Source: a virus (taxonomy: Duplodnaviria; Caudoviricetes). Taken from it: DNA of 52,952 bases. Each line of letters opens with the position of its first letter. Position 1 is the stretch's first letter. The notes below the pieces were generated by a model that worked only from the letters and a program-made list of their open reading frames with translations, did no database searches and was not told where the DNA came from. The position numbers and the translations under genes are program-made. The stretch spans positions 1 through 52,952 of the IMG/VR virus record IMGVR_UViG_3300027833_000068, one strand, 5' to 3'. Of this stretch, positions 11,201 to 45,358 are shown piece after piece.

Positions 11201-14200
11201 CCAATAATATCACCTCTAACAAACGGATGAGCTTTATTAAATGTAAACAAGCCTCCCGGTCCTTCAGTGCCATCTATTGTATCTCGTCCTGCAGCAAATG
11301 ATGATATTGCTGTTACTCGCAGGTCAGTAGTAACATGCTGAAGTACGTCCCAGTTACTATTTTCTCCTGTTACCCAAACATAATCATCTGCACCTATAAC
11401 AGATATATCAGCTGTAAGTATGTCTGACTTATCATTAATTCTGTAACTAATATCTTGATCAAATACAAATCCAGCGTCTTTTACAAACGATGTGTAATCA
11501 GTAATTGTTGGAAACGGTTTATGATCGTAGTTTTGTGGCTTTAAATATACTTCTTCAGGAGTTAATTTGTAAATAGTATCGGTATCATTGGCTGGTATAC
11601 TAGATACTAATTCAATTGGTTGCGGATTAGTTTTAATTTTTGACTCGTCAAGTAAAAACTCTACATTATCAAAATTTTCAGTTGCGCCATATTGACCTAC
11701 TCTTAACGCCCATTCTTCGTAAAATTCTAAACTTTCTTTGTCAGCACTCGCAAGTGCATCAAATAAATTAATTAAAGAATTTGATGTTCCTTTATCTTGT
11801 AACATACCTTGATAAAACTTATATTGTGAAACTTCATCATTAATAATGTTTTCAAGATATTTTCTTTTCTGGTAACCAATTAAATGTTGTGCATGTTTCT
11901 GTTGCTCTAGATCAAAGTTGTCTGTATCTAAATCATAAAAGTCTGCAAACTGATTTATTTTGTATTCAAAGTTTGGTATTAGTTTTGCTTCTGGACGTTC
12001 GTCTAAACGTTGCCATTGGTTGTCAATAAAGAATTCTGTCCCAGTAACATCTATTATTGCAACATAATAAAATTCTTTGTGTTTTACTAGCTTTCCTATT
12101 CCGTAATCTTTATAAGGCGTCCAATCTCTTACTTCAGCTTCGTCATAAACAAATCCAGGAATATTTAATCCGCCACTCCAATTATCACTTCTATAACCAG
12201 TAACTTTAATTCTCTCTTGTCTGTAACCTGCTTCTTGGTCGTAAATTACATCTCCAAAAACTGTTTTATTATCTAATAATATAACATGTTCTCTTTGTAC
12301 TAACGGAAGTTTTACACTGTAAATGCCGTCTGCTGAATTTTTAACAGTTAGCCCAAACTGGTTTTCACTGTCTCTAGCAATACTACTAAAGCTCTTATCT
12401 AATTTTTGACCATCTGCTTTTAATAAACTATAATCATAAAAATTATCAAAGATATTATCAACTACAACATATGGACGGGTAAAGTTAAATTGTTGTGCGC
12501 CTGGACTAAGTGTAATAACTGTGCCTGCTGCCCAATTCTGTGTGGTCCAGAACATAAATTCTTTTACACTGTAAGTCCAATCTTCAACTACACTAATATC
12601 TTTATTGTAGTATTCAAATACAAAACCTTGCTGTTTTAAATACGCTTCATAGCCCAATAAAAAGTCAACTACGTCTTGTGTTGTTCTTAGTAATGTACCG
12701 TATGATATAGTCTTAACTCTGTTTGTAAACTGTCGTCTAAGTACATTTGACCTGCCTCCAACTAACGGAAGCTCTGCCAATTTAGACATTTTAGTAGTAT
12801 CAAAAGATTGTCCACTTACATGACTGTCGCTTACTCTATAGTAAAAGCTATCAAATCTTACATTTTGGCCTTTAACATATTGTTTGCCTGAATCCCAATT
12901 AACAAATGTTTCTGATATTCCGCCAATATTAATTACAGGATCCCTTTGACTTGCAATAGGCTCGTAGTATTTAAATGTTGATAATGCCTGATCGTAACCC
13001 TTTACTACATACCCATTTGTATTTTTTTGTATAACAACACCGCTGTAAGTTGCGATATCAACTGGTGACGAAGTATTAAGAAATAACTTATAATTTTCTG
13101 TAGGTACAAAAACATTACCTTGATTTAATGGGGTTCTGCTATCTAATATTAATTTAAACTTACTCTTATCTGTAAAGCCGCCTACTTTTAATGCTAGTCT
13201 GTTAGACAATGATGTTAATTCTGTTTGATATTCATTATAGTTTGTATTAATATCACTTACAATATAATTGTATATAAAGTTTACGAGTCCACTAGTTATA
13301 ACTCTTTGATTATCAGTATATGTATTAGGAAATAATAAATCTTTTAATCTAATAATAGCATTAGTAGGTTTGTAAACAAGGTTGCCTACTTTATTTCTTT
13401 CAATCCTTGATAAATCAAACGCTGTGCCCATTACTTTTGCAGGTTGATTTAATAACCATGAAGTAATTAATGCAAACGGATATTCACTACTTTTTCTCCA
13501 AGCACTCTCAGCAGGAGTATGGTCTCCAAATGCATAAGGATCTCTTGTCTTAACAGCAATAAAGTTTTGTGCATAGTTGCTGTCTAACGGACTTAATAAA
13601 TTACCATTTTCGTCTACCGGTATATGATTAACTAAATTTGGTCTTTTGTATTTCTTAACTACTTTTGCAGGAACACCAGGTTCTCTTACAATACCATTTT
13701 GTAAATCTTCCCAAAGTACAAAGTTATTTCTAGTATACGGAGCTGCACCGTATTCTGTTTCCCACCATGTTGGCTTAATACTAAATCCTAACATTTCCCA
13801 AGGATGACTGTGAGGACGATCAGTATCGTATGCGTTTATATATACGCCTCTCCAAAATCCAGGTAACGTATTACCTTGTGGAGATGACATATTTTTATAG
13901 TTGTATCTAAATGTATCAGTGTCTTTCCAAAAACTATTAGAAGTATAATCAGGATCGCCTGCAATAACACTCCACTGTACAAAATCCGAAACCATTGCAT
14001 TATTAATATCAATATTATTAAACCCTGTATCTCTAAAGTTGCCGCCTTGGAAATCAGTGATGTCAAAAATGTCTGTGTTGTACTTTTGTTTTAAATTATT
14101 ATATATTCTTCTTTCAAAATCTAATATTAAGTTATCTCTAAAATCCCCGTAAGCAAACGTAATGCTTCCGTCATGACCTTGAATAACAGTCTTTGGTGTT

Positions 14201-17200
14201 TGGTATGTTGTATCTAAAAATATTTCAGGTTTATATGCTGGATACAATCCTAACTTAGTCGGTGTAGTAGGAACAAAGCAAGCATCAGTTGTATCGTATT
14301 CGTATATTTCTACTTCATCGCCAACAGCTAATGTTGCTGAAATATTTACAAAGCCTTCTATAGTAAAAACATAATCTGTTCCATGACATAGTAACTGATC
14401 GTTAAGGTATACTAATACACCATTTGGCGACAAAGTGTCAAGTGTAAAAACTTTTGACAATGCAAAAAATGTACCAGTACTTGCTGTTACTGAATGTAGT
14501 GTTCTTTTAGATGCACCATGCGGCAACATATCTGAGAAGTAAAACGACATGCCTTCAGTTTTTTGGCTGTTTATTTCTTCTAATACTTTATCAACATGTT
14601 CTTTGGTAGGACCATCATATCCTAGATTTTCTGCAACTTGTAAAAATACTCTTTTATATTTTGCGTACTCTATTCTAGCATATTTTAATGCTTTTACAAT
14701 GTTTGCATTTTTATCTGTTAAGTGGTAACTAGCTAATGCTATTGGACCACTATGTTTTACAAATCGTGTTCCGTACTTGCTCGTGTTACCAATATCTCTT
14801 AGATTGCTTACTCCGGGAAATGTATTTCCGTCATACTCAAATGTATTTTCAATAATTGTGCTAACATGATCGTTAACTTCAGCTATTGTAAAATCGCCTA
14901 TGTTTTCGTTCATAGGATTGCGTTCTAAGTTATATGCTAATTCATAATAACCGTTTTCGTTTTTAGTTGTAGCACTGTAGCATCTTAATACTACTACATC
15001 GTCTTCTGTAAGATCATTATTAAATCTTACATATGCAATGCTATTAATTCTGTTAATTTCGTAGTGTGTTGTTTCTTGTTTGAAAGAATTATTTACATAA
15101 ACTTTTACAACTAAATCATTTAGGTCGCCGCTTGCATCAAAAACGTCAACAGCAAAATCATTTGTTGTAGTATCTACAACGTACTGTCTTATTATTGCTT
15201 GACTACTTAATGCATGTGCTTTAGTCCAGCCATTTTCACTAACGTAAGTATTAAGGCCAGTATATTTTCTTAAATATCCTGTTTCAACTTTAACATTTAT
15301 ATTTTCGTTATTTTCTTCGTATACAAATGAATCAGTAACTAGTGGAAAATTAAATTGTATATCGCCAAAGTTTTCAATTGCCCTGTACGATAATGGAAAT
15401 CCTAGCTCTGAATCATTAGTGCCAGTGCCTTGTTTGTAACCAAATAATTGTGTTCCACTAAACGTAGAAGCATTGTAAGTAGTAAAACTATCATCGTTAT
15501 TATCAAATACATCAAATAACGGTTGCTGATTTACTTTAATTTTGTCTTGTGCAGCTTTCCACATAGATCCGTTAAAGTAAAATAAATTACCTTTATAAGT
15601 TGTTCCGCCTTTAACTAATAGTGTTTCATTTACTAACGGAGTCGAATCAGTATCTTCAATTAAACTAATTTGTCTAATATTATCAATTAGAATAAAGTTA
15701 ACTGTGTAAATTTTACCTACTACATTTCTATCTGTATCTGCATTGAAAACTATACGCATACCTTCAGCAACATTTGTGCCGTCAATATTATATCCTGTAG
15801 CATTTTCTACTGTACTAAATGCATCTTTAGTTTTAAAATCAATTAGATCAACATCATTTTTAGCCTTAGTACCAAAGTTAAATAATTTTAAGCCTGCATT
15901 AAATTCAATAATAGGTCTTGATGCTCTAGCACTTTGATCTACTGTAGGCACTTGTCCATTATATTCTGCAGATTTTTCAATTACATCTTTATGGAACCAT
16001 TTGTTGTAACGTGACCAAGCGTTTCTATCAACACTTGCTCTATTAACTATAATGTAATCTTTAGTTCCTGCAAAGGCACTTGCATTACCAAATGGCAATC
16101 TATCAAACCCTTCACTATCAAACGGAACTAATTTATCTCCAACATAACTAGCAGGAATAACTAAGTCACTTTCCTTAACTAGTTTAATGTCGCTACCGAC
16201 ACCTTCAATAAACCATTCGTCATTTTTATAAATTTCAGGTGTAACATTTCCAGCAAACTTAACTTTTAGTCCGTTACTAAATTTAACTTTATTAGAACTT
16301 GTATAAGTTTTCTTTCCAATAATATCGGTGACATCAATTTCAGTGTTTTCAATTATGTCAAATACTTTAATATAGCCACTAGTGTTAACGTCACTTTGGC
16401 TTGAATAATATAATTGCTCTGGTGCATTAAATGGAACTGTGAATGTAATAAAGCCTTCTTCAACATTTACAGGATTAATTTCATTGCCGTTTAAGTCTGT
16501 TGCTGTTATGCCTTGTACATATAAACTAGATATATTTTCTGCACTTCCAGTTGATACAATATTATAACTGCCATCTGCTTGTTTAACTACATCAAATGGT
16601 GCATCAGTAAATCGTCTATCTGTAGAGAACGAAAATGGATGTCCTAGTGTGTTAATTTCAAATGTATAAGTTTGACCTCTATATAAAGTCAATGCCGGAT
16701 TAGGTGTAAACCCTGGTGGTGAAAATTTGTAAACAACATTGTCGTCTTGGTCTTCTGTTGTTACAGTATATGTACTAACTTCTTCTAAACTTTTTCCAAA
16801 AACTGTTACAGTTTGAGGACCGTTTGGCAACCAATAATACTCACGGAAATTTGTAAACTTATCCCAATCAATGTTTGGATTCCAAGCATAATATTCTTGG
16901 CTATTTAATTTACTCTGATTTGCAACACTTCCAGCAAAATTGTTAACTTGATTAACATAGTCAGGATAATCAGCAAAGAAGTTTACATTACCTAAATCAT
17001 CAACAGAAACTGTTGCTGGTTCTAACTGCCTGTTTTCTCTTTGTTCAGTAACATCAGCAATGTATGTGTCGTCGGCCCTAAATGCTTTTGCATTTTTTCG
17101 TCCCATATAGCCACTAACTTTTTCTGCTGTGCCAGGTTGTACTAACTGATCTATTGTACTAGAAAGTATTTTCTTATTTGCTTGTGTTCTAAAATATTTA

Positions 17201-17280
17201 GGAAGTAAGTCAACACTCTTTCTATTAGAGTTGTCGCCTGCTGGCAACGGTGAATCTGTCTGATCGTTATCGTAAGACAT
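2245..17280 (-). CDS. Giant multidomain baseplate wedge/tail structural protein (5011 aa; positionally gp7-like)
   Basis: 15-kb uninterrupted ORF coupled to the gp6-like gene; contains FG-GAP-like propeller blades, short aromatic carbohydrate-binding-like motifs, GGSGY repeats and Ig-like 'VYLNG' modules. Confidence 0.8.
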   Translation of the reverse strand: MSYDNDQTDSPLPAGDNSNRKSVDLLPKYFRTQANKKILSSTIDQLVQPGTAEKVSGYMGRKNAKAFRADDTYIADVTEQRENRQLEPATVSVDDLGNVNFFADYPDYVNQVNNFAGSVANQSKLNSQEYYAWNPNIDWDKFTNFREYYWLPNGPQTVTVFGKSLEEVSTYTVTTEDQDDNVVYKFSPPGFTPNPALTLYRGQTYTFEINTLGHPFSFSTDRRFTDAPFDVVKQADGSYNIVSTGSAENISSLYVQGITATDLNGNEINPVNVEEGFITFTVPFNAPEQLYYSSQSDVNTSGYIKVFDIIENTEIDVTDIIGKKTYTSSNKVKFSNGLKVKFAGNVTPEIYKNDEWFIEGVGSDIKLVKESDLVIPASYVGDKLVPFDSEGFDRLPFGNASAFAGTKDYIIVNRASVDRNAWSRYNKWFHKDVIEKSAEYNGQVPTVDQSARASRPIIEFNAGLKLFNFGTKAKNDVDLIDFKTKDAFSTVENATGYNIDGTNVAEGMRIVFNADTDRNVVGKIYTVNFILIDNIRQISLIEDTDSTPLVNETLLVKGGTTYKGNLFYFNGSMWKAAQDKIKVNQQPLFDVFDNNDDSFTTYNASTFSGTQLFGYKQGTGTNDSELGFPLSYRAIENFGDIQFNFPLVTDSFVYEENNENINVKVETGYLRKYTGLNTYVSENGWTKAHALSSQAIIRQYVVDTTTNDFAVDVFDASGDLNDLVVKVYVNNSFKQETTHYEINRINSIAYVRFNNDLTEDDVVVLRCYSATTKNENGYYELAYNLERNPMNENIGDFTIAEVNDHVSTIIENTFEYDGNTFPGVSNLRDIGNTSKYGTRFVKHSGPIALASYHLTDKNANIVKALKYARIEYAKYKRVFLQVAENLGYDGPTKEHVDKVLEEINSQKTEGMSFYFSDMLPHGASKRTLHSVTASTGTFFALSKVFTLDTLSPNGVLVYLNDQLLCHGTDYVFTIEGFVNISATLAVGDEVEIYEYDTTDACFVPTTPTKLGLYPAYKPEIFLDTTYQTPKTVIQGHDGSITFAYGDFRDNLILDFERRIYNNLKQKYNTDIFDITDFQGGNFRDTGFNNIDINNAMVSDFVQWSVIAGDPDYTSNSFWKDTDTFRYNYKNMSSPQGNTLPGFWRGVYINAYDTDRPHSHPWEMLGFSIKPTWWETEYGAAPYTRNNFVLWEDLQNGIVREPGVPAKVVKKYKRPNLVNHIPVDENGNLLSPLDSNYAQNFIAVKTRDPYAFGDHTPAESAWRKSSEYPFALITSWLLNQPAKVMGTAFDLSRIERNKVGNLVYKPTNAIIRLKDLLFPNTYTDNQRVITSGLVNFIYNYIVSDINTNYNEYQTELTSLSNRLALKVGGFTDKSKFKLILDSRTPLNQGNVFVPTENYKLFLNTSSPVDIATYSGVVIQKNTNGYVVKGYDQALSTFKYYEPIASQRDPVINIGGISETFVNWDSGKQYVKGQNVRFDSFYYRVSDSHVSGQSFDTTKMSKLAELPLVGGRSNVLRRQFTNRVKTISYGTLLRTTQDVVDFLLGYEAYLKQQGFVFEYYNKDISVVEDWTYSVKEFMFWTTQNWAAGTVITLSPGAQQFNFTRPYVVVDNIFDNFYDYSLLKADGQKLDKSFSSIARDSENQFGLTVKNSADGIYSVKLPLVQREHVILLDNKTVFGDVIYDQEAGYRQERIKVTGYRSDNWSGGLNIPGFVYDEAEVRDWTPYKDYGIGKLVKHKEFYYVAIIDVTGTEFFIDNQWQRLDERPEAKLIPNFEYKINQFADFYDLDTDNFDLEQQKHAQHLIGYQKRKYLENIINDEVSQYKFYQGMLQDKGTSNSLINLFDALASADKESLEFYEEWALRVGQYGATENFDNVEFLLDESKIKTNPQPIELVSSIPANDTDTIYKLTPEEVYLKPQNYDHKPFPTITDYTSFVKDAGFVFDQDISYRINDKSDILTADISVIGADDYVWVTGENSNWDVLQHVTTDLRVTAISSFAAGRDTIDGTEGPGGLFTFNKAHPFVRGDIIGVQSTSASNDAFYSVESVFANSIEVLSGQNQTIETLEETDGFVSVLRSVKYDTIKEANAILENKVLKNQKIWVGDTGNWIVPIKNSVYTEKTHYNNPSDYDNTSTYEFGSSMTSNSSNTKLAFGDHSANNNKGLVYTYQRGSNLRELLYEATLELDTSVYPVSDDHRFGTDIDISADGKYLIVGSSTASDVASNYKSNYATSIEYSENDIVKYDENYWKAVRTITPESGSIAFSTFDSYANLERASDSSLLTLVLQGNPYLPNTSTDHLLIAAPFDQYRGTKPQDKLVLNWNSFTNFNRNTGSSNSVELFPQGINAQNTASQYTEPNANFIEGEHLIIEKIDSVLLVEPFTDPPQDGDIIETASGSATIYKAFQRDFKLVLYIKDTNGIFGPSGTINNSNGTLIGNYTQPNYNGTTNAIGGWWYINMPATQTYLTSDEFTNPSDYGIPAYGLVYQDILVYDEVNDSYARTTPNFYNNILDDVNSTIFPTRDEPGFASVLSHRGAAYTNVDNDGVQNILDNRWLLRIPPSLAGQINQPNDKFRAYIDDQAVPADFDLLGIDASYINDNEHTVIDMWEGYIDFTFTKTQGADVVMLSDQDIDTGDFFEPAYIGKVFTDINGVIVNINGADGDFIRDEITGARARVAYYIRRATDQGRVYLKDVTGTFVQGNRMLLETKEGVAELDNLRIMGPINKISVTGNNTGKIAVMQKGTTFPAHPESYGGLDQFRDLNSFAYVNKEFWIYKENLTEAGTDAPASIPSTSNSDWQLVYNLPVTTAGSQVSKPANQGVYSIFNRIGSTWVNRGTFEIPNSSTNSNVGQQVAVSQENDLYRFYIGSKENLTVIKHGTDKYGKQYNYAFDINPHYRGEYNVDATYKTDEIVLYSNQLYSALTFVKGVTPTSTLKWRILNSQVNYLPTLPNAVNIFNDPAFDDLGESVTDFTKQITVSDNGQVLAISIVTDVSVDADNKVLVYRILDDRYVIDQTIVAPVSNTGWGSSIDLSEDGDTLVIADPESDIDGYNTGKVYVYAKSNSTFEMHQVLSGTGTQSEKFGNKVSISKDIIAVTSGNGDVATDTLFDGAITTFDDTFTSFPDKKIDSGSVRLYQKVKDAFILAEELDYDGDLTVLSASRFGEQVLINDNHVYVGVPGDPNDYYTEDTNPGSFVDYQVNRGTKPWTTLRSPNEIVDIKKIKSAFLYNTKTNSLVEYLDYIDPIQGKIAGPAEQELTFKSNIDLARYNVTTLPDYFSETSNWEEKYVGKLWWDLSTTRFYNPYQQDIVNQANVWSKLIPNYSVDVYEWVESTIPPDKWDSLADTSEGYAKGISGTSKYGNNAYSQKLAYDTLSQTFSDKYYFWVKNKKTIPAGDPTRSISGFEAEGLIGNPRGQGYSFLALLSNDRFVLYNSERLLKDKDVALHVSYYTQDTQEQNSHLEYHIVTEGLETSVPKADIERKWIDSLIGYDTRGRPVPNPELSLREKYGTLNSPRQSWFVNRQEAFKQVIERANITLKENIIVDDFSFSTLNSADVQPFVTNRTYDYKIDTLDELDFIGINKIQTAILRASIHGGTVTDIRIINSGRGYSDPTYDITTSTVRHGPSFELFGNGSGLDFNLEINNLGQISKVNIINGGSGYDENLRIEVRPLTVLVENDSTVNNKWATYEYNKNSNVWNRILSQSYDTTEYWDYVDWYAPNYTQFTRIDHRVDESYQLASTNAKLGQIVKIDNIGNGGWLLLKRTAETNSTDYTIDYDTIGRENGTIEINSKLYNVIENTVGYDLLGYDNRFFDTEPVTEARQIMTALKNDIFVDNLAVKWQELFFASIRYVLSEQQNVDWVYKTSFVKAKHNVGDLTQKINYQNDNLESYNDYINEVKPYKTNVREYLSSYENVDNTKTQTSDFDVPPYYDFTQNGIKTKSVKITDNSLVGVDSFFDDYPYKNWSENYGFKVIAVNIYNGGSNYTYPPTVTIAGGGGTGATAKAYLGAGKVVNIVVTNTGTGYTSAPTVTITGSQADGSTTAIASAQIGETVVRSMHVEMKFDRVSGEYVIIELPETETFTGTAINDKFALKWPMNLRRNKVKITLNGQILLRSEYTFTNIEDNTYTYKRYKGQVQLTTTPPLGSIIVVEYEKQSTILNAQDRINHLYNPTTGMLGKELSQLMTGIDYGGVEVKSFGFEGTSGWMTDEYGADTWDSYDNEFQDEIFFADGTTVAIELDNPLEDGIQYNVYLKRSGQTKAIRIDDPNYGNNPANTLAKMQTLTGDGVTQTINLAENDIEVSDGDIVTIRKITSDGSFKPDPDSYDTLLTGGQLDYGNAAGVNADDIILDGDLFVTPLNAGGPEELVNGQVMDSVNITVFERTGEGQGQIYNQNYITDGTTTEYPLGLLPNSNDAVIVKLGNTIIDASLYTVDYKTLTLAFKVAPVTDQILTILTVGVNGQNIIDIGTIISVADENVYQTNILWDDNYQIFLRKDGNTPDGLELIARKDNVNGFIEFVFSPQPPVVGTRLDYEIYSNSDQINYSKIQKDNIIADGSSVTYNLSTSAIYETPAEFFTIVEVDGIVKKPGYSKIFKITDPTLREYELETFQVQESTLSAADTEVYLNGNLLNQQDSYAVNIGQSSIILENNILSENDILSVYFRNADYRVVGNQVTFNSAPIEDQEINVYTFSNHDIVDINRISYDVINRSTLTPGTDNYSAYHSLTGGRIELNSPASGVENVWIFQNGRMLAPSVDYKLESNMKVIQLVTVPAENDIIDIIHFTAPISTPTIAWQQFKDILNRTHYKRVDNNDGIKLSQPLNYDDLRVVVVEGADRLPTPDKRSNKPGVIWLDGERIEYFAKTGNDLRQLRRGTLGTGVKDTYPTNTPVYGGGIDKNIPYRDETIVWSPVDAVTEGQTDFTLDFTPNSVNEFEVFAAGTRLNKAAIVKFNPAIAIDSPEGDVNTPAEFTVSGNVLTLTNPMSANQKLVVIRKIGKLWTTPGTPLKDAQNDIGSFLRGAQSELPE

Positions 17281-28516: not shown

Positions 28517-29377
28517 TTGAGAAAACGTAATTACCTTAATAATAAGGACATATTGTCAGAAATCCATAAATCTAAGAACACTTTTAATAGTTATGTGGAA
28601 TCTTCATATCATCAGTACGATTTGATACTGTTAGATATAGCTAAAATTAATAGACTAACTATTGCTGAAGCAAAAAGAGCGAAGGCTAAGAGGCTCAGCT
28701 CTGCTGAATACGAAAGACGAAAAATGGCCGGTGAAAAGGTCAAGCAAGCTGAATGTGAAACAGATTGGAAAAAGATAACAAAAGAAGAACTAATCTTCCG
28801 TGTTATGTCATTTGATCATATTCCAGAAGAGCCTGGACGTAAGAAGAATCCTAAAACTATAGCAGACACTAAGACTAAACTTAACTTTCCACCATTTCAT
28901 CATTACAAATTTAATGACGAAGGTGAGCTTGTTTTAGTTGGTAAAAGTCATTGGGTCGGTGGTATGGACAACGGGCACTTTGACAAAACACATGGTAAGG
29001 CAACAAATACACTTGCTACTATGTGGTTAAAGTTAGTAGACCGTTATGCTACTCGAGGCAATGTACGTGGTTACACATACAATGACGAAATGAAGGGTCA
29101 AGCAATACTACAATTAGCGCAGATTGGTTTACAATTTGACGAATCAAAGTCAAACAATCCGTTTGCATACTATACAGCAGCCGTTACTAACAGTTTTGTA
29201 CGTGTTATTAATATAGAAAAACGTAATCAAAACATTAGAGACGACATTTTAGAAATGAACGATCTTAATCCTTCTTACACAAGACAAGCACAAGGTGAAT
29301 GGGAAGCAGCTGTAAAACGTAACGAACAAGCACCTATTACAATCTTTAAAGATAAAAAACCGGTTGACAACAGCTAA
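28517..29377 (+). CDS. gp55: Late-transcription sigma factor, gp55-like
   Basis: TTG start with GGAG SD; NYLNNKDIL N-terminus and RGYTYNDEMKGQAI...FDESKSNNPFAYYT motif of gp55 homologues; adjacent to gp47/gp46 as in T4-like phages. Confidence 0.85.
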   Translation: MRKRNYLNNKDILSEIHKSKNTFNSYVESSYHQYDLILLDIAKINRLTIAEAKRAKAKRLSSAEYERRKMAGEKVKQAECETDWKKITKEELIFRVMSFDHIPEEPGRKKNPKTIADTKTKLNFPPFHHYKFNDEGELVLVGKSHWVGGMDNGHFDKTHGKATNTLATMWLKLVDRYATRGNVRGYTYNDEMKGQAILQLAQIGLQFDESKSNNPFAYYTAAVTNSFVRVINIEKRNQNIRDDILEMNDLNPSYTRQAQGEWEAAVKRNEQAPITIFKDKKPVDNS

Positions 29378-29423: not shown

Positions 29424-30446
29424 TTGTTTAAGAAAGCCGCTGTCTTTACCGATATTCACTTCGGTTTAAAAAGCAATTCGCGTGTTCATAATGACGACTG
29501 TGAAGAATTTATTGATTGGTACATAGAACAAGCACAAGCTGCCGGTTGTGAAACTGGTATCTTCTGCGGAGACTGGCATCACAACAGAAATAGCCTTAAC
29601 CTTACAACTATGGATGCAACTATTAGATCCATGGAAAAATTGGGTAATGCATTTGAAAAGTTTTATTTCTTTGATGGTAATCATGATTTATACTACAAAG
29701 ACAAAAGAGATGTAAATTCAACAGCATTTGCAAAACACATTCCCGGAATTACGTTTGTTGACGAAATGATGGTTGAAGAAGATGTTGCACTTGTTCCTTG
29801 GTTAGTAGGCGATGAATGGAAGAAAATACAAAAGTGTAAAGCAAAGTATATGTTTGGTCACTTTGAACTTCCTAGTTTTTATATGAACGCAATGGTTAAG
29901 ATGCCCGATCACGGAGGCGATCTTAACAAACAACATTTTGCAAATCAAGATTATGTGTTTAGTGGACACTTTCACAAAAGACAAACACAGGGTAAAATAC
30001 ATTATATCGGTAATGCGTTTCCACACAACTATGCAGATGCGTGGGACGACGATAGAGGTATGATGATATTAGATCGTGAAAACGATTTAGAACCAGAATA
30101 CATCAATTGGGAAGATTGTCCAAAGTATCGGACTGTAAAACTTTCAAAACTAATTGATGAACAGAGCACTCTTATTAAGAGTAGAATGTATCTGCGTGTA
30201 GAACTTGACATTGACATTAGTTACGAAGAAGCAAGTTTTATTAAAGAAACATTTATAAGAGATTATAAATGTAGAGAAATTACACTTATTCCCCAATCAC
30301 AAATTGAGGAAATATCAACAGACTTAGACATTAGCAAATTTGTTAGTGTTGACCAAATTGTTGCAGGTGAAATAGCAGAACTAGATACAGACTCTTTTGA
30401 TAAGGTAAAACTTTTGGAGATTTATAACGGATTGGCACATGATTAA
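29424..30446 (+). CDS. gp47: Recombination endonuclease, Mre11/SbcD-like
   Basis: Metallophosphoesterase motifs DIHFG, GDWHH, GNHD, FGHFE, SGHFH; TTG start with GGAGG SD. Confidence 0.93.
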   Translation: MFKKAAVFTDIHFGLKSNSRVHNDDCEEFIDWYIEQAQAAGCETGIFCGDWHHNRNSLNLTTMDATIRSMEKLGNAFEKFYFFDGNHDLYYKDKRDVNSTAFAKHIPGITFVDEMMVEEDVALVPWLVGDEWKKIQKCKAKYMFGHFELPSFYMNAMVKMPDHGGDLNKQHFANQDYVFSGHFHKRQTQGKIHYIGNAFPHNYADAWDDDRGMMILDRENDLEPEYINWEDCPKYRTVKLSKLIDEQSTLIKSRMYLRVELDIDISYEEASFIKETFIRDYKCREITLIPQSQIEEISTDLDISKFVSVDQIVAGEIAELDTDSFDKVKLLEIYNGLAHD

Positions 30447-32211
30447 AATTCAAGACCTAACAGTAAGAAATTTTATGAGTGTTGGGAATCAAACCCAAGC
30501 GGTAGATTTCGACAAACAACAACTTACATTAGTACTCGGCGAAAACTTAGATCAAGGAGGTGACGATTCTGGCTCGCGAAACGGTACTGGTAAAACTACA
30601 ATCATCAATGCACTAAGTTATGCACTCTACGGAAATGCATTAACTAATATTAGAAAAAATAACTTAATTAACAAAACTAATTCTAAAGGTATGTTAGTTA
30701 CTCTTTCTTTTGAGAAAGATAGTCTTCAATATCGCATTGAACGTGGTAGATCCCCAAATTTATTAAAGTTCTACATTAACAATGAAGAACAAGTTGACAT
30801 AGATGAATCGCAAGGCGATAGTCGTAAGACTCAAGAATCAATAGACCATTTGCTAGGTATGAGCCATGATATGTTTAAGCACATTGTTGCATTAAACACA
30901 TACACAGAGCCATTCCTAAGTATGCGTACTAACGATCAAAGAGCTATTATTGAACAACTTTTAGGTATTACAATATTATCCGAAAAGGCAGATGTACTTA
31001 AAGATGATATTAGAGATACTAAGGATAATCTAAGTCAAGAGACAATGCGTATTAATGCATTACAAACAGCAAACGAAAAAATTGACGAAACAATTAACGG
31101 TCTTAAAAGTAAACAGAAAGCATGGCTATCTAAACGTACTACAGACACAATAAAGTTACGTGAAGCAATTGACGAATTAGAACATTTGGACATTGAATTA
31201 GAACTAGAATCACATGAAAAATTAACAAATTGGTCTGAACTAAACAATTCTATTTTGGCTCTTAATAAAGAGAAAAGCACACTAGAGACTGCACAGTTAC
31301 GTGCTACTAAGTCTGTGTCTAAAGTTGAAAAAGATATCTTACAACTAGATAATGCTGCTTGTCATACATGTGGACAATCATTACATGCTGACAAAAAAGC
31401 AGAAATATTAGATAACAAATCTAAAGAACTAACTGACGCTGATGCATATCTTACTGAAGTATCTGATAAGTTAAATGTTGTAATTACTGAACTTTCAAAC
31501 ATTGGAGACATTAACGGTCGTCCAAATACTTTTTATGAAACTTCTAAAGAAGCGTATGCTCATAAGAGTAATGTTAGCAACTTAACACAGGCATGGAGCA
31601 ACAAAAAAGACGAAGCTGATCCATATCAAGAACAAATTGACGATCTTGAAAATAGTGCAAAACAAGAGATTGATTGGGAAGAAATTAATACGTTAACTTC
31701 GCTCAAAGAACATCAAGAATTTTTATTGAAACTACTTACTAATAAAGATAGCTTTATACGTAAAAAGATTATTGATCAAAATTTAGCATATTTAAACAAT
31801 AGACTTACTAACTATCTTGATAGATTAGGACTACCGCACAGTGTTACATTCCAAAATGATCTTAGTGTAGAAATTACACAACTTGGTCAAGACTTAGACT
31901 TTGATAACTTGTCAAGAGGCGAACGTAACAGACTTATACTTGGTATGAGTTTTGCGTTCAGAGATGTATGGGAAAGTTTGTATCAAAATATTAACTTACT
32001 ATTCATTGACGAACTTATTGACAGTGGCATGGATGCTAACGGAGTTGAAAACTCGTTAAGTGTACTTAAAAAGATGGCTAGAGAACGTGATAAAAATATC
32101 TACTTAATATCACATAAAGATGAATTAATTGGTAGAGTTAACAATGTTCTTAAAGTTATAAAAGAGAACGGATTTACAAGTTATGAAAACGATGTTCAAG
32201 TGATAGAATAA
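30439..32211 (+). CDS. gp46: Recombination ATPase, Rad50/SbcC-like
   Basis: Walker A NGTGKTT, coiled coil with CHTC zinc hook, signature LSRGE, Walker B LLFIDE, H-loop ISH. Confidence 0.95.
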   Translation: MIKIQDLTVRNFMSVGNQTQAVDFDKQQLTLVLGENLDQGGDDSGSRNGTGKTTIINALSYALYGNALTNIRKNNLINKTNSKGMLVTLSFEKDSLQYRIERGRSPNLLKFYINNEEQVDIDESQGDSRKTQESIDHLLGMSHDMFKHIVALNTYTEPFLSMRTNDQRAIIEQLLGITILSEKADVLKDDIRDTKDNLSQETMRINALQTANEKIDETINGLKSKQKAWLSKRTTDTIKLREAIDELEHLDIELELESHEKLTNWSELNNSILALNKEKSTLETAQLRATKSVSKVEKDILQLDNAACHTCGQSLHADKKAEILDNKSKELTDADAYLTEVSDKLNVVITELSNIGDINGRPNTFYETSKEAYAHKSNVSNLTQAWSNKKDEADPYQEQIDDLENSAKQEIDWEEINTLTSLKEHQEFLLKLLTNKDSFIRKKIIDQNLAYLNNRLTNYLDRLGLPHSVTFQNDLSVEITQLGQDLDFDNLSRGERNRLILGMSFAFRDVWESLYQNINLLFIDELIDSGMDANGVENSLSVLKKMARERDKNIYLISHKDELIGRVNNVLKVIKENGFTSYENDVQVIE

Positions 32212-32399
32212 TGGACGATACACACGATAAACTTATTAAAGCATATCTTATGTACTTTGAAGAAAATGAAAAGTTCGAAGCACGTAATTCTGTGAGAACA
32301 CACGGAAGTGCAAGACGTGCTTTAAGACAGTTACGTATGTTAGCAAAAGAACGTATGGACGAAATACACACTAAACATAAAGGCAAAAGTCAGAACTAG
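32211..32399 (+). CDS. Small basic hypothetical protein (62 aa)
   Basis: Coupled to the gp46 stop (TAATG); helical, Arg/Lys-rich. Confidence 0.65.
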   Translation: MDDTHDKLIKAYLMYFEENEKFEARNSVRTHGSARRALRQLRMLAKERMDEIHTKHKGKSQN

Positions 32400-32433
32400 T
32401 CTAACACCATGCAAGAAGGAAATAATTACTTGC

Positions 32434-32883
32434 ATGGAGTGGACGTACAAAGGCAAAAAACTTAAAGAAATACCAGACGAGTACGAAGGCTTCGTTTATT
32501 TAATAACGAACAAAAAGACTGGTCAAAAATACGTAGGCAAAAAACTAGCAAAATTTAAGACCACAAAGCCACCACTCAAAGGCAGAAAAAACAAACGCAG
32601 AGGATACAAAGAGTCAGACTGGAAAACTTACTATGGTAGTTCAGACAGACTTAATGCAGATGTTGCAACACTAGGCGAAAAGCACTTCACAAGAGAAATA
32701 CTATACCTATGTAAAGGTAGGGGCGAAATGTCCTACATAGAGGCAAGAGAGCAGTTTGACAGGCGAGTACTTGAAACAGATGATTACTATAATGGAATCA
32801 TTAATGTTAGAGTAGGCGGATCAGATAAACTCAAACAGGCATTACTAGAACACCACATCAAGGCAAAACAAACCAACACATAA
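32434..32883 (+). CDS. Stand-alone GIY-YIG family endonuclease
   Basis: GFVYLITN...YVGKK (GIY-YIG motif), conserved Glu (YIEAREQ) and Asn (YYNG); no obvious C-terminal DNA-binding repeats. Confidence 0.85.
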   Translation: MEWTYKGKKLKEIPDEYEGFVYLITNKKTGQKYVGKKLAKFKTTKPPLKGRKNKRRGYKESDWKTYYGSSDRLNADVATLGEKHFTREILYLCKGRGEMSYIEAREQFDRRVLETDDYYNGIINVRVGGSDKLKQALLEHHIKAKQTNT

Positions 32884-33280
32884 GGTTGGCGGGCCAGACT
32901 AGAAATACCGCTGTGGAAAAAGCTCTCGTATAGAAGCACACGTACATATTGATTGACACACCAGAGTGTGGAAGCCATCAAACAAATTGGGCTCACTAGT
33001 TGATATAGATTGCATGTTGGCAGTCGAAAAACACAAACACAGTACATAAAAACTCTTTAGCAATAGGAACGAAGCGAGAGGTAGCGCAAGCGATGTCGAC
33101 GTAGGTTGGGAAAGGTCAGAGCCCATTGTACTTTGTGTATAAACAATTACCTACTTCCAATGTCTCGGCTGGTGCGACTCACATGAAGCGTATTTTGAGA
33201 TTAGATGGGACCGTAACAGGTTCCGTCTGACTGAAACAATCTACATGAAACTTAAACATTATTACATTCGTAATAATGCA
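32884..33280 (+). ncRNA. Candidate large structured non-coding RNA (class not recognised)
   Basis: ORF-poor and visibly more GC-rich than other intergenic DNA; many helices including GU-containing stems (33201-33230; 32994-33003/33165-33174) and long-range pairs (32988-32994/33119-33125; 33006-33012/33237-33243). Confidence 0.6.
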
Positions 33281-33342
33281 TTTGTTCATATTATAATCAC
33301 TTCTATCAAACAAAAAAGTTAGTTTGAGCGTTAGCGAAAACA

Positions 33343-33362
33343 TTAAGAGCTTTAGCTCTTAA
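33343..33362. terminator. Perfect hairpin TTAAGAGC-TTTA-GCTCTTAA (possible terminator or processing site)
   Basis: 8-bp inverted repeat flanked by A-rich tracts just before the next late promoter. Confidence 0.45.
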
Positions 33363-33368
33363 CAAAAA

Positions 33369-33376
33369 CATAAATA
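33369..33376 (+). promoter_or_regulatory. Putative late promoter CATAAATA
   Basis: T4 late-promoter-like core ~30 nt upstream of the 33407 gene. Confidence 0.6.
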
Positions 33377-33406
33377 GTATTAGTAAACTTATAAGGTATA
33401 TTCAAG

Positions 33407-34147
33407 ATGAAAATAAATGATATTCTAATAGAAGCAAAAGCTGATCCTGATGTAGTAAAAAGATTTGCAGGAGTTGCTGATAGCCAACGTTCATATTACA
33501 TACACCATTGGGCAAAAGAAAAAGGCATAGACACTGATGATGCTATGCACATGGCAGGCTATGTACAAAATGGTTACTTAGGTGCTGGTGCTTGGAACTG
33601 GCGTTATGTAGGTATGGAGGAAAGTTTAGCAACCGAAGCTCCTGTAGGAATGTTAAAAAGAGCTGGACAGGCCGTAGGTGCTAAAGCACTTGGAGCAATT
33701 GGCATGAAGGGCAAAGCAGGCAACTTAGCAGGCAAAGCAGATCTTAGTGCTACAGCAAATACCTTATACAATCAATTTAGACAGTACCTTGGAACACAAG
33801 AACTAGATATAAAAAATGCAACAGGAGCATCTTTAGTTGCGTTTTTAAAATCTAAGCGTGTTAAGAAAATTGGTGCTGTTCCTAAAGGTCCACTAACTAA
33901 GCAAGTTATGGACACAGCATTTATGCAAGCCGCAAAAGAAGCAATGAATACACAGCAAGGCGTAAAAGGACCAGTTGCTAGTCCTGCTCCTAAGAAAGCT
34001 GTTGCTAAAAAAGTTCCAGTTGGATCTAGTGGTTATGTAAAGACTAAGGATGCTGCACTTCAACTCAATGCAAAAGAGAAAAGAAGATTAATTCAACAGA
34101 TTGAAAAAAGTATTAAAGTTAGTCCGGCTAAGAAACCTACTGTTTAA
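33407..34147 (+). CDS. Hypothetical protein, possible internal head protein
   Basis: Late promoter upstream; N-terminus MKINDILIEA resembles a capsid-targeting/gp21 cleavage leader; basic Ala/Gly/Lys-rich body. Confidence 0.65.
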   Translation: MKINDILIEAKADPDVVKRFAGVADSQRSYYIHHWAKEKGIDTDDAMHMAGYVQNGYLGAGAWNWRYVGMEESLATEAPVGMLKRAGQAVGAKALGAIGMKGKAGNLAGKADLSATANTLYNQFRQYLGTQELDIKNATGASLVAFLKSKRVKKIGAVPKGPLTKQVMDTAFMQAAKEAMNTQQGVKGPVASPAPKKAVAKKVPVGSSGYVKTKDAALQLNAKEKRRLIQQIEKSIKVSPAKKPTV

Positions 34148-44820: not shown

Positions 44821-44886
44821 TAGTGTGCCGCAAGGCGGACTTATGCTGTACCCACAGCGTAGCTCATAGAACGGGCATAGGACTAC
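44821..44886 (+). promoter_or_regulatory. Candidate structured 5' leader RNA
   Basis: GCC-GCAA-GGC GNRA hairpin, TATGCTGT-ACCC-ACAGCGTA stem, closing TAGT/ACTA, immediately before the SD. Confidence 0.5.
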
Positions 44887-44905
44887 TTTTTATAGGAGAA
44901 AAAAA

Positions 44906-45358
44906 ATGGGAAGACCACTTAATAAAAGATTTTTTGGACCAGCTACAGCAGATGGTAATGAAATCAAAGTAGACTTTTATAACGGTGCAGCCGTTGTTGA
45001 AGGCTATATCGTAAAGCAATTAGGATCTAAAAAGTTTCGTGTAGCGGCTATCGGTACACCAGCAACAACTTACGATCGTGTATTAACAACTGGTAAACTA
45101 CCAGCTGCGCTAACTGGCACAGAAATGTCCATTAGTGTAAAAGGTGATGACGGTGAAACTTATGGAGTAAGCAAAATTGCAGGACGTAAAGTAACACTAG
45201 CACAACCAAGTGCAACAGGTGCAAACGCATTAGATGGAACATCTATTTCGTGGAACTTTACAGCTAGTGATGGCGATTACGCTGTTGAAGTTGAAGAAGC
45301 TGGTGACGATGATACATTAATCGGAACTGACGATTCAGACTTTACTGAAAACGCATAA
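44906..45358 (+). CDS. Virion structural protein (possible head decoration protein)
   Basis: Strong SD, late promoter, directly downstream of gp23; function inferred from position only. Confidence 0.65.
   Translation: MGRPLNKRFFGPATADGNEIKVDFYNGAAVVEGYIVKQLGSKKFRVAAIGTPATTYDRVLTTGKLPAALTGTEMSISVKGDDGETYGVSKIAGRKVTLAQPSATGANALDGTSISWNFTASDGDYAVEVEEAGDDDTLIGTDDSDFTENA

What the first reader, a model, noticed from the sequence alone, without database searches (positions are those of the whole stretch)
32884..33250. Ribozyme-like architecture: one strand pairs consecutively with three distant segments
Seen: 32988-32994 TGGGCTC pairs with 33119-33125 GAGCCCA. 32994-33003 CACTAGTTGA pairs with 33165-33174 TCGGCTGGTG (3 GU). 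33006-33012 TAGATTG pairs with 33237-33243 CAATCTA. Also ACACAA..AGTACA (33031-33046) with TGTACTTTGTGT (33127-33138), GTAGGT/ACCTAC (33101-33106/33149-33154), CAGTC/GACTG (33021-33025/33229-33233), a local CACAC-CAGA-GTGTG hairpin, GCAA tetraloops and a 12-bp stem with 3 GU pairs (33201-33230). Several helices cross, so the fold needs pseudoknots or alternative conformers. GU pairs that work only on the + strand point to RNA rather than DNA cruciforms. I cannot assign it to a known class (RNase P, tmRNA, group I/II intron, HEARO, GOLLD, ROOL).
Basis: partly seen in the sequence, partly recalled or inferred. Interest (0 to 1): 0.8.

Follow-up and report, generated by a model that had tools for sequence, protein, structure and literature searches.

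The report
New large pseudoknotted phage RNA gene

Summary
The quoted complementary strings are all at the stated coordinates. In this one sequence they are no more than chance: the MFE z-score is -0.94, and stem counts equal those of shuffles.

Comparison with relatives shows a genuine + strand structured RNA, about 32872-33280. My 89-pair model, with two pseudoknots, scores as follows on 76 distinct sequences:
- 91.7% of cells paired, against 82.0% shuffled.
- 52 pairs changed on both sides.
- Covariation 0.277 against 0.132 (0 of 500 shuffles reach it).

Rfam 15 has no match, and isolate phage records have no blastn match.

The RNA sits after gp47-gp46 in two divergent types, each found in at least 120 loci. 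The upstream GIY-YIG gene is optional: it is absent in 29 of 104 type-2 loci.

One feature is unexplained. Two copies of a 7-mer, one in a hairpin loop and one in the 3' tail, change identically in 74 of 76 sequences.

Function is unknown. My best guess is a trans-acting scaffold that presents twin specificity sequences to one partner.

The parts
32434..32883 (+). 149-aa stand-alone GIY-YIG nuclease ORF (context, not part of the RNA). Its last codons overlap the 5' strand of pseudoknot PK1.
   Evidence: Pfam PF19835 SegE_GIY-YIG, E 1.8e-35. PHROG 447, E 2.4e-39. Present in 40 of 40 gp46-anchored loci. Absent upstream of the RNA in 29 of 104 type-2 loci and in L059.
32873..32878 (+). PK1 5' strand (CCAACA). 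It pairs with the P5 loop at 33015-33020.
   Evidence: helix 1: 99.6% paired, and 5 of 6 pairs change on both sides. Counts: CG:58/AU:14/GC:2; CG:68/UA:8; AU:59/GC:16.
32888..32912 (+). P1 hairpin (GGCGG/CCGCU) with a conserved 15-nt loop.
   Evidence: helix 2: 98.9% paired. One pair is compensated (GC:71, AU:5).
32913..32941 (+). P2 (32913-15/32939-41), which encloses the P3 hairpin (32922-27/32933-37).
   Evidence: helix 3: UA:64/AU:9. Helix 4: 5 of 5 pairs change on both sides, for example GC:57/CG:17 and CG:53/UA:23.
32946..33006 (+). P4 (32946-52/33000-06). Its interior varies between subfamilies and includes the local hairpin 32957-61/32966-70.
   Evidence: helix 5: 98.5% paired, with UA:50/CG:26, AU:47/GC:28 and UA:46/CG:23. 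Helix 7: 4 of 4 pairs change on both sides.
33008..33025 (+). P5 hairpin. Its loop, 33015-33020, is the 3' strand of PK1.
   Evidence: helix 8: 98.4% paired, and 4 of 5 pairs change on both sides.
33031..33046 (+). P6 5' strand (outer part 33031-37, inner part 33042-46).
   Evidence: helix 10 (inner): 98.4% paired, 5 of 5 pairs compensated, for example UA:51/CG:19/GC:3. Helix 9 (outer): 72.1% paired in the MAFFT alignment. By eye it is compensated: ACACAAA/UUUGUGU, CUGC/GCAG, CCGC/GCGG.
33053..33080 (+). P7 hairpin with a nearly invariant 12-nt loop, AAUAGGAACGAA (33062-73).
   Evidence: helix 11: 96.3% paired, and 5 of 7 pairs change on both sides (UA:41/CG:24, CG:51/GC:20).
33083..33092 (+). 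P8, a hairpin of variable length. In the window it is GC-GCAA-GC; relatives have up to about 110 extra columns here in the alignment.
   Evidence: Alignments.
33093..33126 (+). Ultra-conserved core. It holds the PK2 5' strand GUAGGU (33101-06) and the P9 hairpin UGGG-AAAGGUCAGAG-CCCA (33107-25).
   Evidence: the block 33095-33124 is almost wholly invariant in 76 sequences. Two caveats apply. The 18 bases 33106-23 were the search pattern. The flanks were not, and they are conserved too. PK2, helix 12: 100% paired, UA:74/CG:2, GC:68/GU:8.
33127..33138 (+). P6 3' strand.
   Evidence: See the P6 5' strand entry (helices 9 and 10).
33149..33158 (+). PK2 3' strand ACCUAC (33149-54), followed by the invariant UUCC.
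   Evidence: helix 12. In L059 the pairing is GCAGGU/ACCUGU. A pairing of UUCC with GGAA of the P7 loop is my inference and could not be tested, because the columns are invariant.
33162..33201 (+). P10 (33162-67/33196-201), which encloses a small hairpin. The roughly 12-nt loop of that hairpin carries twin motif copy A, ACUC-ACAUGAA (33181-87).
   Evidence: helix 14: 83.3% paired, and 3 of 6 pairs change on both sides. Loop context.
33204..33227 (+). P11 hairpin (GAUGGGACC/GGUUCCGUC).
   Evidence: helix 15: 98.8% paired, CG:73/UA:3, with many G-U to A-U or G-C switches. In type-2 RNAs a wholly different hairpin (UUCGCCCG-GCAA-CGGGCGAA) stands at the same place.
33228..33249 (+). Conserved single-stranded tail UGACUGAAACAAUCU, then twin motif copy B, ACAUGAA (33243-49).
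   Evidence: A pairing of 33228-32 with the P9 loop 33114-18 (GGUCA) is my inference. Only 33232 varies (U or C), and both letters can pair with G33114.
33257..33278 (+). P12, a terminator-like hairpin followed by a weak U-tract. This is the probable 3' end of the RNA.
   Evidence: helix 16: 9 of 9 pairs change on both sides, but only 71.4% are paired in the MAFFT alignment, because the sequences differ in length. Sequences are listed. It was not picked up by the terminator scan, which requires at least 3 G-C pairs.

Best explanation
The region is a gene for a large non-coding RNA of about 400 nt, from roughly 32872 to 33280 on the + strand.

Structure and setting:
- The RNA folds into at least 12 helices tied together by two pseudoknots, possibly more.
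- It is a constant part of the genome of a clade of uncultured marine T4-like phages. CheckV estimates imply genomes near 370 kb.
- It lies at the end of the rightward gp55-gp47-gp46 gene block, just before convergent baseplate genes.
- It is transcribed with, or processed from, the 3' end of the upstream message. Its first helix strand lies in the last codons of whichever ORF stands upstream.
- The GIY-YIG gene is an optional insertion, not a partner.

How it most likely works is inferred, not shown. The compact, sequence-invariant core acts as a ribozyme-like or protein-binding scaffold. That scaffold displays the same 7-nt 'specificity' sequence twice, once in a hairpin loop and once in the 3' tail, to one common partner that varies between phage lineages.
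For: Conservation:
- The non-coding stretch is 73-100% identical in 20 of 21 loci fetched through the downstream protein. In some of those loci that protein is only 57% identical.
A second, divergent type also gave at least 120 loci.

Structure:
- 89 pairs; 91.7% of cells paired against 82.0% shuffled.
- 652 cells changed on both sides against 206 shuffled.
- Covariation 0.277 against 0.132 (0 of 500 shuffles reach it); slid controls give 0.05-0.07.
- Hairpins vary in length at fixed points.

Not coding: stops in all three + frames.

Strand: G-U pairs fit only the + strand.

Independence from GIY:
- GIY is absent upstream in 29 of 104 type-2 loci, where another ORF stands instead.
- The RNA is also present in a non-T4-like phage beside terminase genes (L059).
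- A GIY homologue in phage Melnitz has no such RNA.

Constancy: of 40 gp46-anchored loci with enough sequence, 35 have type 1, 3 have type 2 and 2 run out of sequence.

RNA libraries: contigs from 4 metatranscriptome runs of 3 studies cover 32650-33150 and bridge the stop codon.

Twin 7-mers:
- The two copies are identical in 74 of 76 rows, with 9 different 7-mers.
- 40 cells changed to the same letter in both copies, and 2 changed in one copy only.
- The rule holds with other 7-mers in type 2: 55 identical, 3 with one mismatch, 16 of 74 not scorable.
Against: - No partner for the twin 7-mers was found. None lies in the RNA +/-330 nt. None sits at a fixed place within +/-7 kb of 125 loci. The complement TTCATGT is absent from the window.
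- No RNA ends, abundance or strand could be read, because all four runs are kept as contigs and DNA carry-over in RNA libraries cannot be excluded.
- Single-sequence folding energy is not better than shuffles.
- The 5' domain is replaced in some subfamilies, so not all of the 400 nt is essential.
- The 18-mer and the 17-mer were search patterns, so invariance inside them is by construction.
- Related sequences share ancestry, which inflates the shuffle statistics. The slid controls and multi-type pairs argue against this being the whole story.
- No catalytic activity is shown.
Confidence: 0.55

Rival explanations
1. A cis-acting sensor, like a riboswitch, T-box or attenuator. The folded RNA would decide whether transcription from the early gp47-gp46 block stops at the P12 hairpin or reads on into the genes downstream. 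The twin 7-mers would be alternative pairing partners in two conformers.
For: - The RNA ends in a hairpin plus a U-rich stretch, and copy B lies about 10 nt upstream of it.
- In many sequences the 3' part of B can pair with a UUCAU-like stretch behind the hairpin.
- Further conserved hairpins follow before the next gene.
Against: - The downstream genes differ between loci, and convergent genes often come next. The upstream block is constant, which is unusual for a cis regulator of downstream genes.
- The stretch behind the hairpin does not covary consistently with the 7-mer.
- No cis complement was found for both copies.
- At about 400 nt, with two or more pseudoknots, it is far larger than known expression platforms.
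- No riboswitch or T-box model matches at E up to 10.
Confidence: 0.15
2. A group I-like intron or its remnant, associated with the GIY-YIG homing endonuclease gene.
For: - A GIY-YIG ORF lies directly upstream.
- P6 and PK2 cross like P3 and P7, with two hairpins nested in P6.
- GGUCAGAGCCCA recalls the R element. This is recalled from memory, not tested.
Against: - No Rfam intron model matches at E up to 10.
- The flanks are a complete ORF and intergenic DNA, not a split gene.
- There is no P8 between the P3'-like and P7'-like strands, only 8-14 unpaired bases.
- No skipped-part joints appear in 4 RNA-library runs.
- The RNA persists without the GIY gene.
Confidence: 0.04
3. An RNA partner or guide of the GIY-YIG nuclease, which lacks a DNA-binding domain.
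For: - The ORF is only the catalytic domain: 149 aa, with Pfam covering residues 3-123.
- In all type-1 T4-like loci with enough upstream sequence it lies directly upstream of the RNA.
- The variable twin 7-mers look guide-like.
Against: - GIY is absent in 29 of 104 type-2 loci and in L059.
- The same protein family occurs in 798 isolate phage records, and neither type of the RNA has any blastn match in that collection.
- In Melnitz the homologue sits after the ribonucleotide reductase genes, followed by only 148 nt of spacer.
Confidence: 0.04
4. A DNA-level element, such as a replication origin, packaging site or operator pair, or nothing but chance complementarity.
For: - Single-sequence statistics are at chance level.
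- Identical change of two short sites is what operator sets bound by one protein show. This rests on general knowledge, not on a test here.
Against: - Compensatory changes in 52 of 89 pairs.
- G-U pairs are specific to the + strand.
- Hairpin insertions of variable length.
- The spacing between the twin sites varies with the length of the intervening hairpin.
- The stretch is present in RNA libraries.
Confidence: 0.04

Closest known systems
GOLLD and ROOL RNAs (large ornate RNAs, often in phages or prophages, function unknown)
   Same: A large, multi-helix, pseudoknotted non-coding RNA carried by phage genomes, found by comparative sequence analysis and with no known function. The comparison rests on my recollection and on the abstract of PMC12286853 as shown in the search listing.
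   Different: Neither Rfam model matches, and no family is reported at E up to 10. This RNA is smaller, about 400 nt. It holds a fixed syntenic place after gp46. It carries the twin 7-mers that covary identically. Homo-oligomer formation, as described for GOLLD and ROOL, was not tested.
Group I intron catalytic core
   Same: A long-range helix (P6) encloses two hairpins. It is crossed by a second helix (PK2), as P3 is crossed by P7. There are invariant joining strands, and a homing-type nuclease gene lies next door.
   Different: There is no P8, no split host gene, no Rfam match and no spliced contigs, and the RNA is kept where the nuclease gene is missing.
T-box riboswitch (logic only)
   Same: A codon-like triplet followed by a purine is displayed in a loop. 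Positions 3-5 of the 7-mer are AUG or AUA in most sequences, and position 6 is always A. A terminator-like hairpin lies downstream.
   Different: No T-box model matches. There are two copies of the sequence, the RNA sits at the 3' end of an operon, and no T-box bulge was recognised. tRNA binding is untested: 0 of 60 loci and 0 of 5 large records encode a tRNA to compare with.
Free-standing seg-type GIY-YIG genes of T4-like phages
   Same: The upstream ORF is of this kind and behaves as an optional insertion between conserved genes.
   Different: That describes the neighbour, not the RNA. No structured RNA is known to me as part of seg cassettes; this is recollection.

Membership tests
Group I intron | Match to the Rfam group I intron covariance model(s) | tested here: not met
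   The search of 32100-33500 at E up to 10 lists no intron family. The same holds for a type-2 locus.
Group I intron | Interrupts a host gene, with exons on both sides that join to an intact gene | tested here: not met
   Upstream is a complete ORF that ends at 32883. Downstream there are stops in all frames up to an independent ORF at 33407. No joints appear in 4 RNA-library runs.
Group I intron | P3-P7 pseudoknot with P4-P6 nested in P3, and P8 between P3' and P7' | tested here: not met
   P6 and PK2 have the crossing topology. However, only 8-14 unpaired bases lie where P8 should be, and a hairpin (P9) lies between the P7-like and P3'-like strands.
Group I intron | Guanosine-dependent self-splicing | not testable with these tools
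   This needs in vitro transcription with Mg2+ and GTP.
RNase P RNA | Match to the Rfam RNase P models (P4 pseudoknot with the CR-I/CR-V sequences) | tested here: not met
   No RNase P family at E up to 10. The likeness of GGGAAAGGUC to CR-I is a recollection only.
tmRNA (including two-piece forms) | tRNA-like domain plus a tag reading frame | tested here: not met
   ARAGORN finds none in the window or in 60 loci. There is no Rfam tmRNA match.
HEARO / omega RNA of IscB or TnpB | Rfam match and an adjacent IscB or TnpB gene | tested here: not met
   No Rfam match. The neighbours are gp46, a 62-aa ORF, a GIY-YIG ORF and a 246-aa ORF.
GOLLD / ROOL | Match to the Rfam models | tested here: not met
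   Searches list none.
T-box riboswitch | Rfam T-box match; Stem I with a Specifier loop; T-box bulge in an antiterminator | tested here: not met
   No match at E up to 10. Only the codon-plus-purine look of the 7-mers resembles it.
Structured non-coding RNA (generic) | Base pairs kept by compensatory change above controls, and no conserved reading frame | tested here: met
   0 of 500 shuffles reach the observed covariation, and the slid controls are about 4-fold lower; stops in all + frames.

The most novel reading that the evidence does not exclude
A new class of large phage RNA that reads a tRNA. The twin 7-mers are exactly the length of an anticodon loop. Position 6 is always A, which could pair with U33. 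Positions 3-5 are AUG or AUA in most lineages, with rare switches to GUG, ACG or AGA. Both copies change together.

This is what one would expect if both copies must pair with the anticodon loop of the same tRNA (Met, fMet or Ile2 in most lineages). The invariant pseudoknotted core would hold or act on the body of the tRNA. Possible roles are shielding the tRNA from host anticodon nucleases, sensing its state, or processing it.

More broadly, it would be a programmable, address-carrying RNA machine in jumbo T4-like marine phages.
Probability: 0.15. Interest if true: 0.9.

Novelty: categorically new. Interest (0 to 1): 0.75.

Why it matters
Large RNAs with complex folds and invariant cores are rare. 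Most that have been understood, such as RNase P, group I and II introns, tmRNA and the T-box, turned out to be catalysts or precise molecular readers.

This one is found in at least 240 phage loci of two deeply divergent types. It keeps a fixed genomic place while its neighbours come and go, and it matches none of the 4227 Rfam families.

Its two copies of a 7-nt sequence that mutate in lock-step are a kind of covariation I know from no described RNA class. They point to a specific, lineage-variable partner that can be searched for.

One caveat on novelty. A 2023 survey of IMG/VR predicted over ten thousand unnamed candidate structured RNAs (PMC10690425). I saw its listing and passages found by term search, and the main text does not mention GIY-YIG or this locus.

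Tried and rejected
Known families. The window was searched against Rfam at gathering thresholds, and the region and a type-2 locus at E up to 10. Nothing relevant was found. The weak rli49, TB11Cs5H3 and DUF805b rows lie outside the RNA or inside the ORF and are far below their cut-offs.

Decayed C-terminal domain of the nuclease. Rejected. The 149-151 aa length is the norm among the best 120 of 8000 scored relatives, and the region has stops in all frames.

Partners for the twin 7-mers. Each of these was examined and none covaries with the 7-mer:
- the P6 3' strand, whose G/U-rich UUGUGU pairs promiscuously but stays put when P6 changes to GCAG or GCGG;
- the P5 loop;
- the GIY start region;
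- the conserved CA(A/G)CACNUAAGG motif at the upstream stop codon;
- the stretch behind P12;
- any site within +/-7 kb.
Self-complementarity (CAUG) is not kept in the variants. Translational bypass from the ACA-UAA of the ORF to ACA-UGA in the motifs was considered and dropped: the codons do not covary, and a landing would meet a stop at once.

A possible pair 32943/33243 (UA:68, CG:4) rests on one clade and only 3 stacked pairs, so I did not include it.

tRNA test. No tRNA gene was found in 60 loci or in 5 records of 105-169 kb, so the tRNA idea could not be tested.

RNA libraries:
- No contig at 88% likeness or more covers 33220-33430 in the four runs. This says nothing about absence.
- Depth differences between genes cannot be used.
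- Common contig ends at 32904 and 32933 overlap by 30 bases. I read them as assembly-graph breaks, not RNA ends.

Cellular genomes. 119 are chance hits without the flanking features. One is the same phage synteny in a contig binned to a MAG.

Isolate phages. No blastn match for either type.

PDB. No sequence match for the nuclease.

Literature.
Full report
**What is at the coordinates**

The finding spans 32884-33250. It begins one base after the stop codon of a 149-aa ORF (32434-32883, +) that consists only of a SegE-type GIY-YIG nuclease domain (Pfam PF19835, E 1.8e-35; PHROG 447).
- Upstream lie a late sigma factor (28517-29377), an SbcD/gp47-like gene, an SbcC/gp46-like gene (30439-32211) and a 62-aa ORF.
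- Downstream, after about 520 non-coding bases, lies a 246-aa ORF of no known family, followed by convergent baseplate genes.
- The region has stops in all three + frames.
- Its G+C is 0.42-0.44, against 0.25-0.32 in the AT-rich spacer that follows.

**The observation itself**

Taken by themselves they are not evidence.
- The + strand folds to -95.0 kcal/mol against -89.95 +/- 5.35 for dinucleotide shuffles (z = -0.94; 16 of 100 shuffles fold as well).
- The minus strand is worse than its shuffles (z = +1.43).
- Perfect stems of 7 or more number 3 against 2.62 +/- 1.56 in 200 shuffles. WC+GU stems of 7 or more number 37 against 35.3.

**Relatives show a real RNA**

Loci fetched through the downstream protein (21 loci) carry the non-coding stretch at 73-100% identity in 20 of 21. 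In some of them it is more conserved (83% nt) than the neighbouring protein (57% aa).

The alignment has three marks of a structured RNA:
- invariant blocks;
- hairpins of very different length inserted at fixed points;
- paired changes.

On 76 distinct sequences (alignment A1) I scored an 89-pair model with 16 helices, two of them pseudoknots:
- 91.7% of cells are standard pairs, against 82.0% in shuffles.
- 52 pairs have changes on both sides, against 36.0.
- 652 cells are doubly changed, against 206.
- The covariation score is 0.277 against 0.132. For each of these four measures, 0 of 500 shuffles reach the observed value.
- One measure, further pair types, was not above shuffles (121 against 123.0; 372 of 500 reach it).
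- With the 3' partners slid by 1-3 columns the score falls to 0.05-0.07.

The shuffle control ignores shared ancestry. However, many pairs show three or more pair types, and the slid controls keep relatedness.

**The structure, in window coordinates**

| Element | Coordinates | Note |
|---|---|---|
| PK1 | 32873-78 with 33015-20 (the P5 loop) | CG:58/AU:14/GC:2; CG:68/UA:8; AU:59/GC:16 |
| P1 | 32888-92 / 32908-12 | |
| P2 | 32913-15 / 32939-41 | encloses P3 |
| P3 | 32922-27 / 32933-37 | |
| P4 | 32946-52 / 33000-06 | interior differs between subfamilies |
| P5 | 33008-12 / 33021-25 | |
| P6 | 33031-37 + 33042-46 with 33127-31 + 33132-38 | |
| P7 | 33053-61 / 33074-80 | nearly invariant 12-nt loop |
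| P8 | 33083-92 | variable length |
| PK2 | GUAGGU 33101-06 with ACCUAC 33149-54 | UA:74/CG:2; L059 has GCAGGU/ACCUGU |
| P9 | 33107-10 / 33122-25 | invariant |
| P10 | 33162-67 / 33196-201 | |
| P11 | 33204-12 / 33219-27 | |
| P12 | 33257-65 / 33270-78 | terminator-like |

- PK1 puts the 5' edge of the RNA inside the last codons of the upstream ORF.
- Two further tertiary pairings look plausible to me: the P9 loop GGUCA with the tail UGACU, and the P7 loop GGAA with UUCC at 33155-58. The columns are invariant, so neither could be tested.

The four long-range helices behind the title are 32988-94/33119-25, 32995-33003/33165-73, 33006-12/33237-43 and 33021-25/33229-33. Together they score 0.079 against a shuffled 0.079 (241 of 500). 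In helices 1, 3 and 4, 0 of 19 pairs change on both sides, and many cells are unpaired. Their strands belong to P4 and P5, which do covary.

So is the general statement that pseudoknots are needed and that G-U pairs mark the + strand.

**Not a known family**

Rfam 15 (4227 families) gives nothing in the region at gathering thresholds or at E up to 10. The same holds for the second type. ARAGORN finds no tRNA or tmRNA.

The P6/PK2 crossing resembles P3/P7 of group I introns, but four things are missing:
- P8;
- a split host gene;
- a model match;
- any joint in RNA-library contigs.

Three literature searches found no description. A survey of candidate structured RNAs in IMG/VR (PMC10690425; passages read) does not mention this locus in its main text, and its supplements are closed.

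**Distribution and neighbours**

The window is an IMG/VR record that CheckV rates 14% complete. Five related records of 105-169 kb are rated 29-46%. This implies genomes near 370 kb.

Neither type of the RNA has a blastn match in 50,697 isolate phage records.

In type-1 loci the order gp47 - gp46 - 62-aa ORF - GIY - RNA is kept, while what follows the RNA varies.

In an unbiased sample anchored on gp46, 40 loci have at least 1400 nt after gp46:
- all 40 have the GIY gene;
- 35 have the type-1 RNA;
- 2 run out of sequence;
- 3 have a different non-coding stretch at the same place.

That stretch is a second, deeply divergent type of the same RNA. It shares ACGAAGC-AGAG, a hairpin with AGGUCA in its loop, GGCUG, the loop ACUC+7-mer, a P11-like hairpin of unrelated sequence, and the tail UGAC...AUCU+7-mer.

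A 17-mer from type 2 found at least 120 loci, 122 in all held. Of the 104 with at least 900 nt upstream, 75 have GIY directly upstream and 29 do not. In L339 another ORF stands there.

Two further loci add to the picture:
- L059 carries a type-1 RNA in a phage with no gp46 or GIY, beside terminase-like genes.
- The closest isolate homologue of the GIY protein (69% identity, phage Melnitz) lies after the ribonucleotide reductase genes with no such RNA.

The RNA is therefore the constant gene and the nuclease gene an optional neighbour.

**Expression**

One search of public runs listed 12 rows on record as RNA that hold part of the stretch. I laid four metatranscriptome runs from three studies.
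- Their contigs cover about 32650-33150 and bridge the stop codon (for example 32730-32933 and 32797-32933).
- One contig reaches 33155, and a loose end continues as a relative's version of the RNA.
- There are no joints.

All four runs are kept as contigs. Ends, strand and level cannot be read, and DNA carry-over cannot be excluded.

**The twin 7-mers**

Copy A (33181-87) lies in the roughly 12-nt loop of a small hairpin and is preceded by ACUC. Copy B (33243-49) lies in the single-stranded tail and is preceded by AUCU.
- On A1 the two copies are identical in 74 of 76 rows, although nine different 7-mers occur: ACAUGAA 46, ACAUAAU 9, ACAUGAU 7, ACGUGAA 4, GCAUAAA 2, GCAUGAA 2, ACAUGAG 2, GUAUGAA 1 and ACAUAAA 1.
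- 40 cells changed to the same letter in both copies. 2 changed in one copy only.
- Type 2 keeps the rule with other 7-mers: GAAUAAU 32, GGAUGAA 10, GAAUGAU 5, GGAUGAG 4, AGAUGAU 3 and GGAUGAU 1. Three rows have one mismatch, and 16 of 74 were not scorable by my pattern.

This is identity, not complementarity. Both copies presumably meet the same partner. I found none:
- not in cis;
- not at a fixed place within +/-7 kb of 125 loci;
- the complement is absent from the window.

Position 6 is always A. Positions 3-5 are AUG or AUA in most sequences. The length equals that of an anticodon loop. This suggests, but does not show, pairing with a tRNA anticodon loop. No tRNA genes were available to test it.

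**Verdict**

This is a real and apparently undescribed large structured RNA.
- That it is a functional folded RNA gene: I hold at about 0.9.
- That it works as a trans-acting scaffold presenting twin specificity sequences to a common partner: about 0.3-0.4.
- The rivals in order: cis regulator 0.15; group I-like remnant, nuclease partner, and DNA-level element or chance, about 0.04 each.

Noticed in passing
window 44824-44908 (+): This is the only Rfam match above a gathering score in the window: the freshwater-2 RNA motif (RF02980), 68.4 bits against a cut-off of 49.9. It lies just upstream of the ORF at 44906-45358.
   Followed up: no
window 33322-33342 (+), and the same place in many loci: A second small conserved RNA-like element lies downstream of the big RNA. 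It is a hairpin whose outer stem covaries (GUUU/AAAC, GUGUU/AACAC, GUUUUU/AAAAAC). Inside are what look like tandem G-A pairs, a 2-bp GC stem and a GNNA loop, as in UGAGCG-UUA-GCGAAA. It is followed by another strong hairpin (33346-33366). On the minus strand that second hairpin scores as a terminator.
   Followed up: partly
window 32409-32440 (+): A hairpin (CCAUGCAAG...CUUGCAUGG) holds the AAGGAAA ribosome-binding stretch in its loop and the start codon of the GIY ORF in its 3' strand. In many relatives the same place carries a conserved GGUAAGUA box 5-6 nt before the ATG.
   Followed up: no
L059 (IMG/VR contig): A type-1 copy of the RNA sits in a phage without gp46, gp47 or GIY. It lies between a 65-aa ORF and terminase-like genes, which suggests transfer of the RNA gene between unrelated phages.
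   Followed up: partly
L152 (genome contigs): The same gp47-gp46-62aa-GIY-RNA synteny occurs on a 72.8-kb contig binned into a Crocinitomicaceae (Bacteroidota) MAG. This is either a binning artefact or a hint at the host.
   Followed up: partly
window as a whole; records G001-G005: CheckV completeness is 14% for 52,952 bases and 29-46% for relatives of 105-169 kb. This implies genomes of roughly 370 kb, so these would be jumbo T4-like phages. No tRNA gene was found in the window or in five large records.
   Followed up: no
window 2245-17280 (-): One open reading frame of 5011 aa. It is flanked by further ORFs of 1156, 800 and 1184 aa on the same strand.
   Followed up: no
L339 and 28 other type-2 loci: Where the GIY gene is missing, a different ORF of about 170 aa (MTSPQKAKGGSFEREIA...) occupies the slot directly upstream of the RNA. 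It again ends at the conserved AAAUAGG at the 5' edge of the RNA. Its family was not determined.
   Followed up: no
window 32756-32784 (+): A sigma-70-like match (TTGACA, 17 nt, GATGAT) lies inside the 3' part of the GIY ORF, about 100 nt before the RNA. It is one of only 2 matches in the region, fewer than in shuffles (4.4), so it is no evidence on its own.
   Followed up: no
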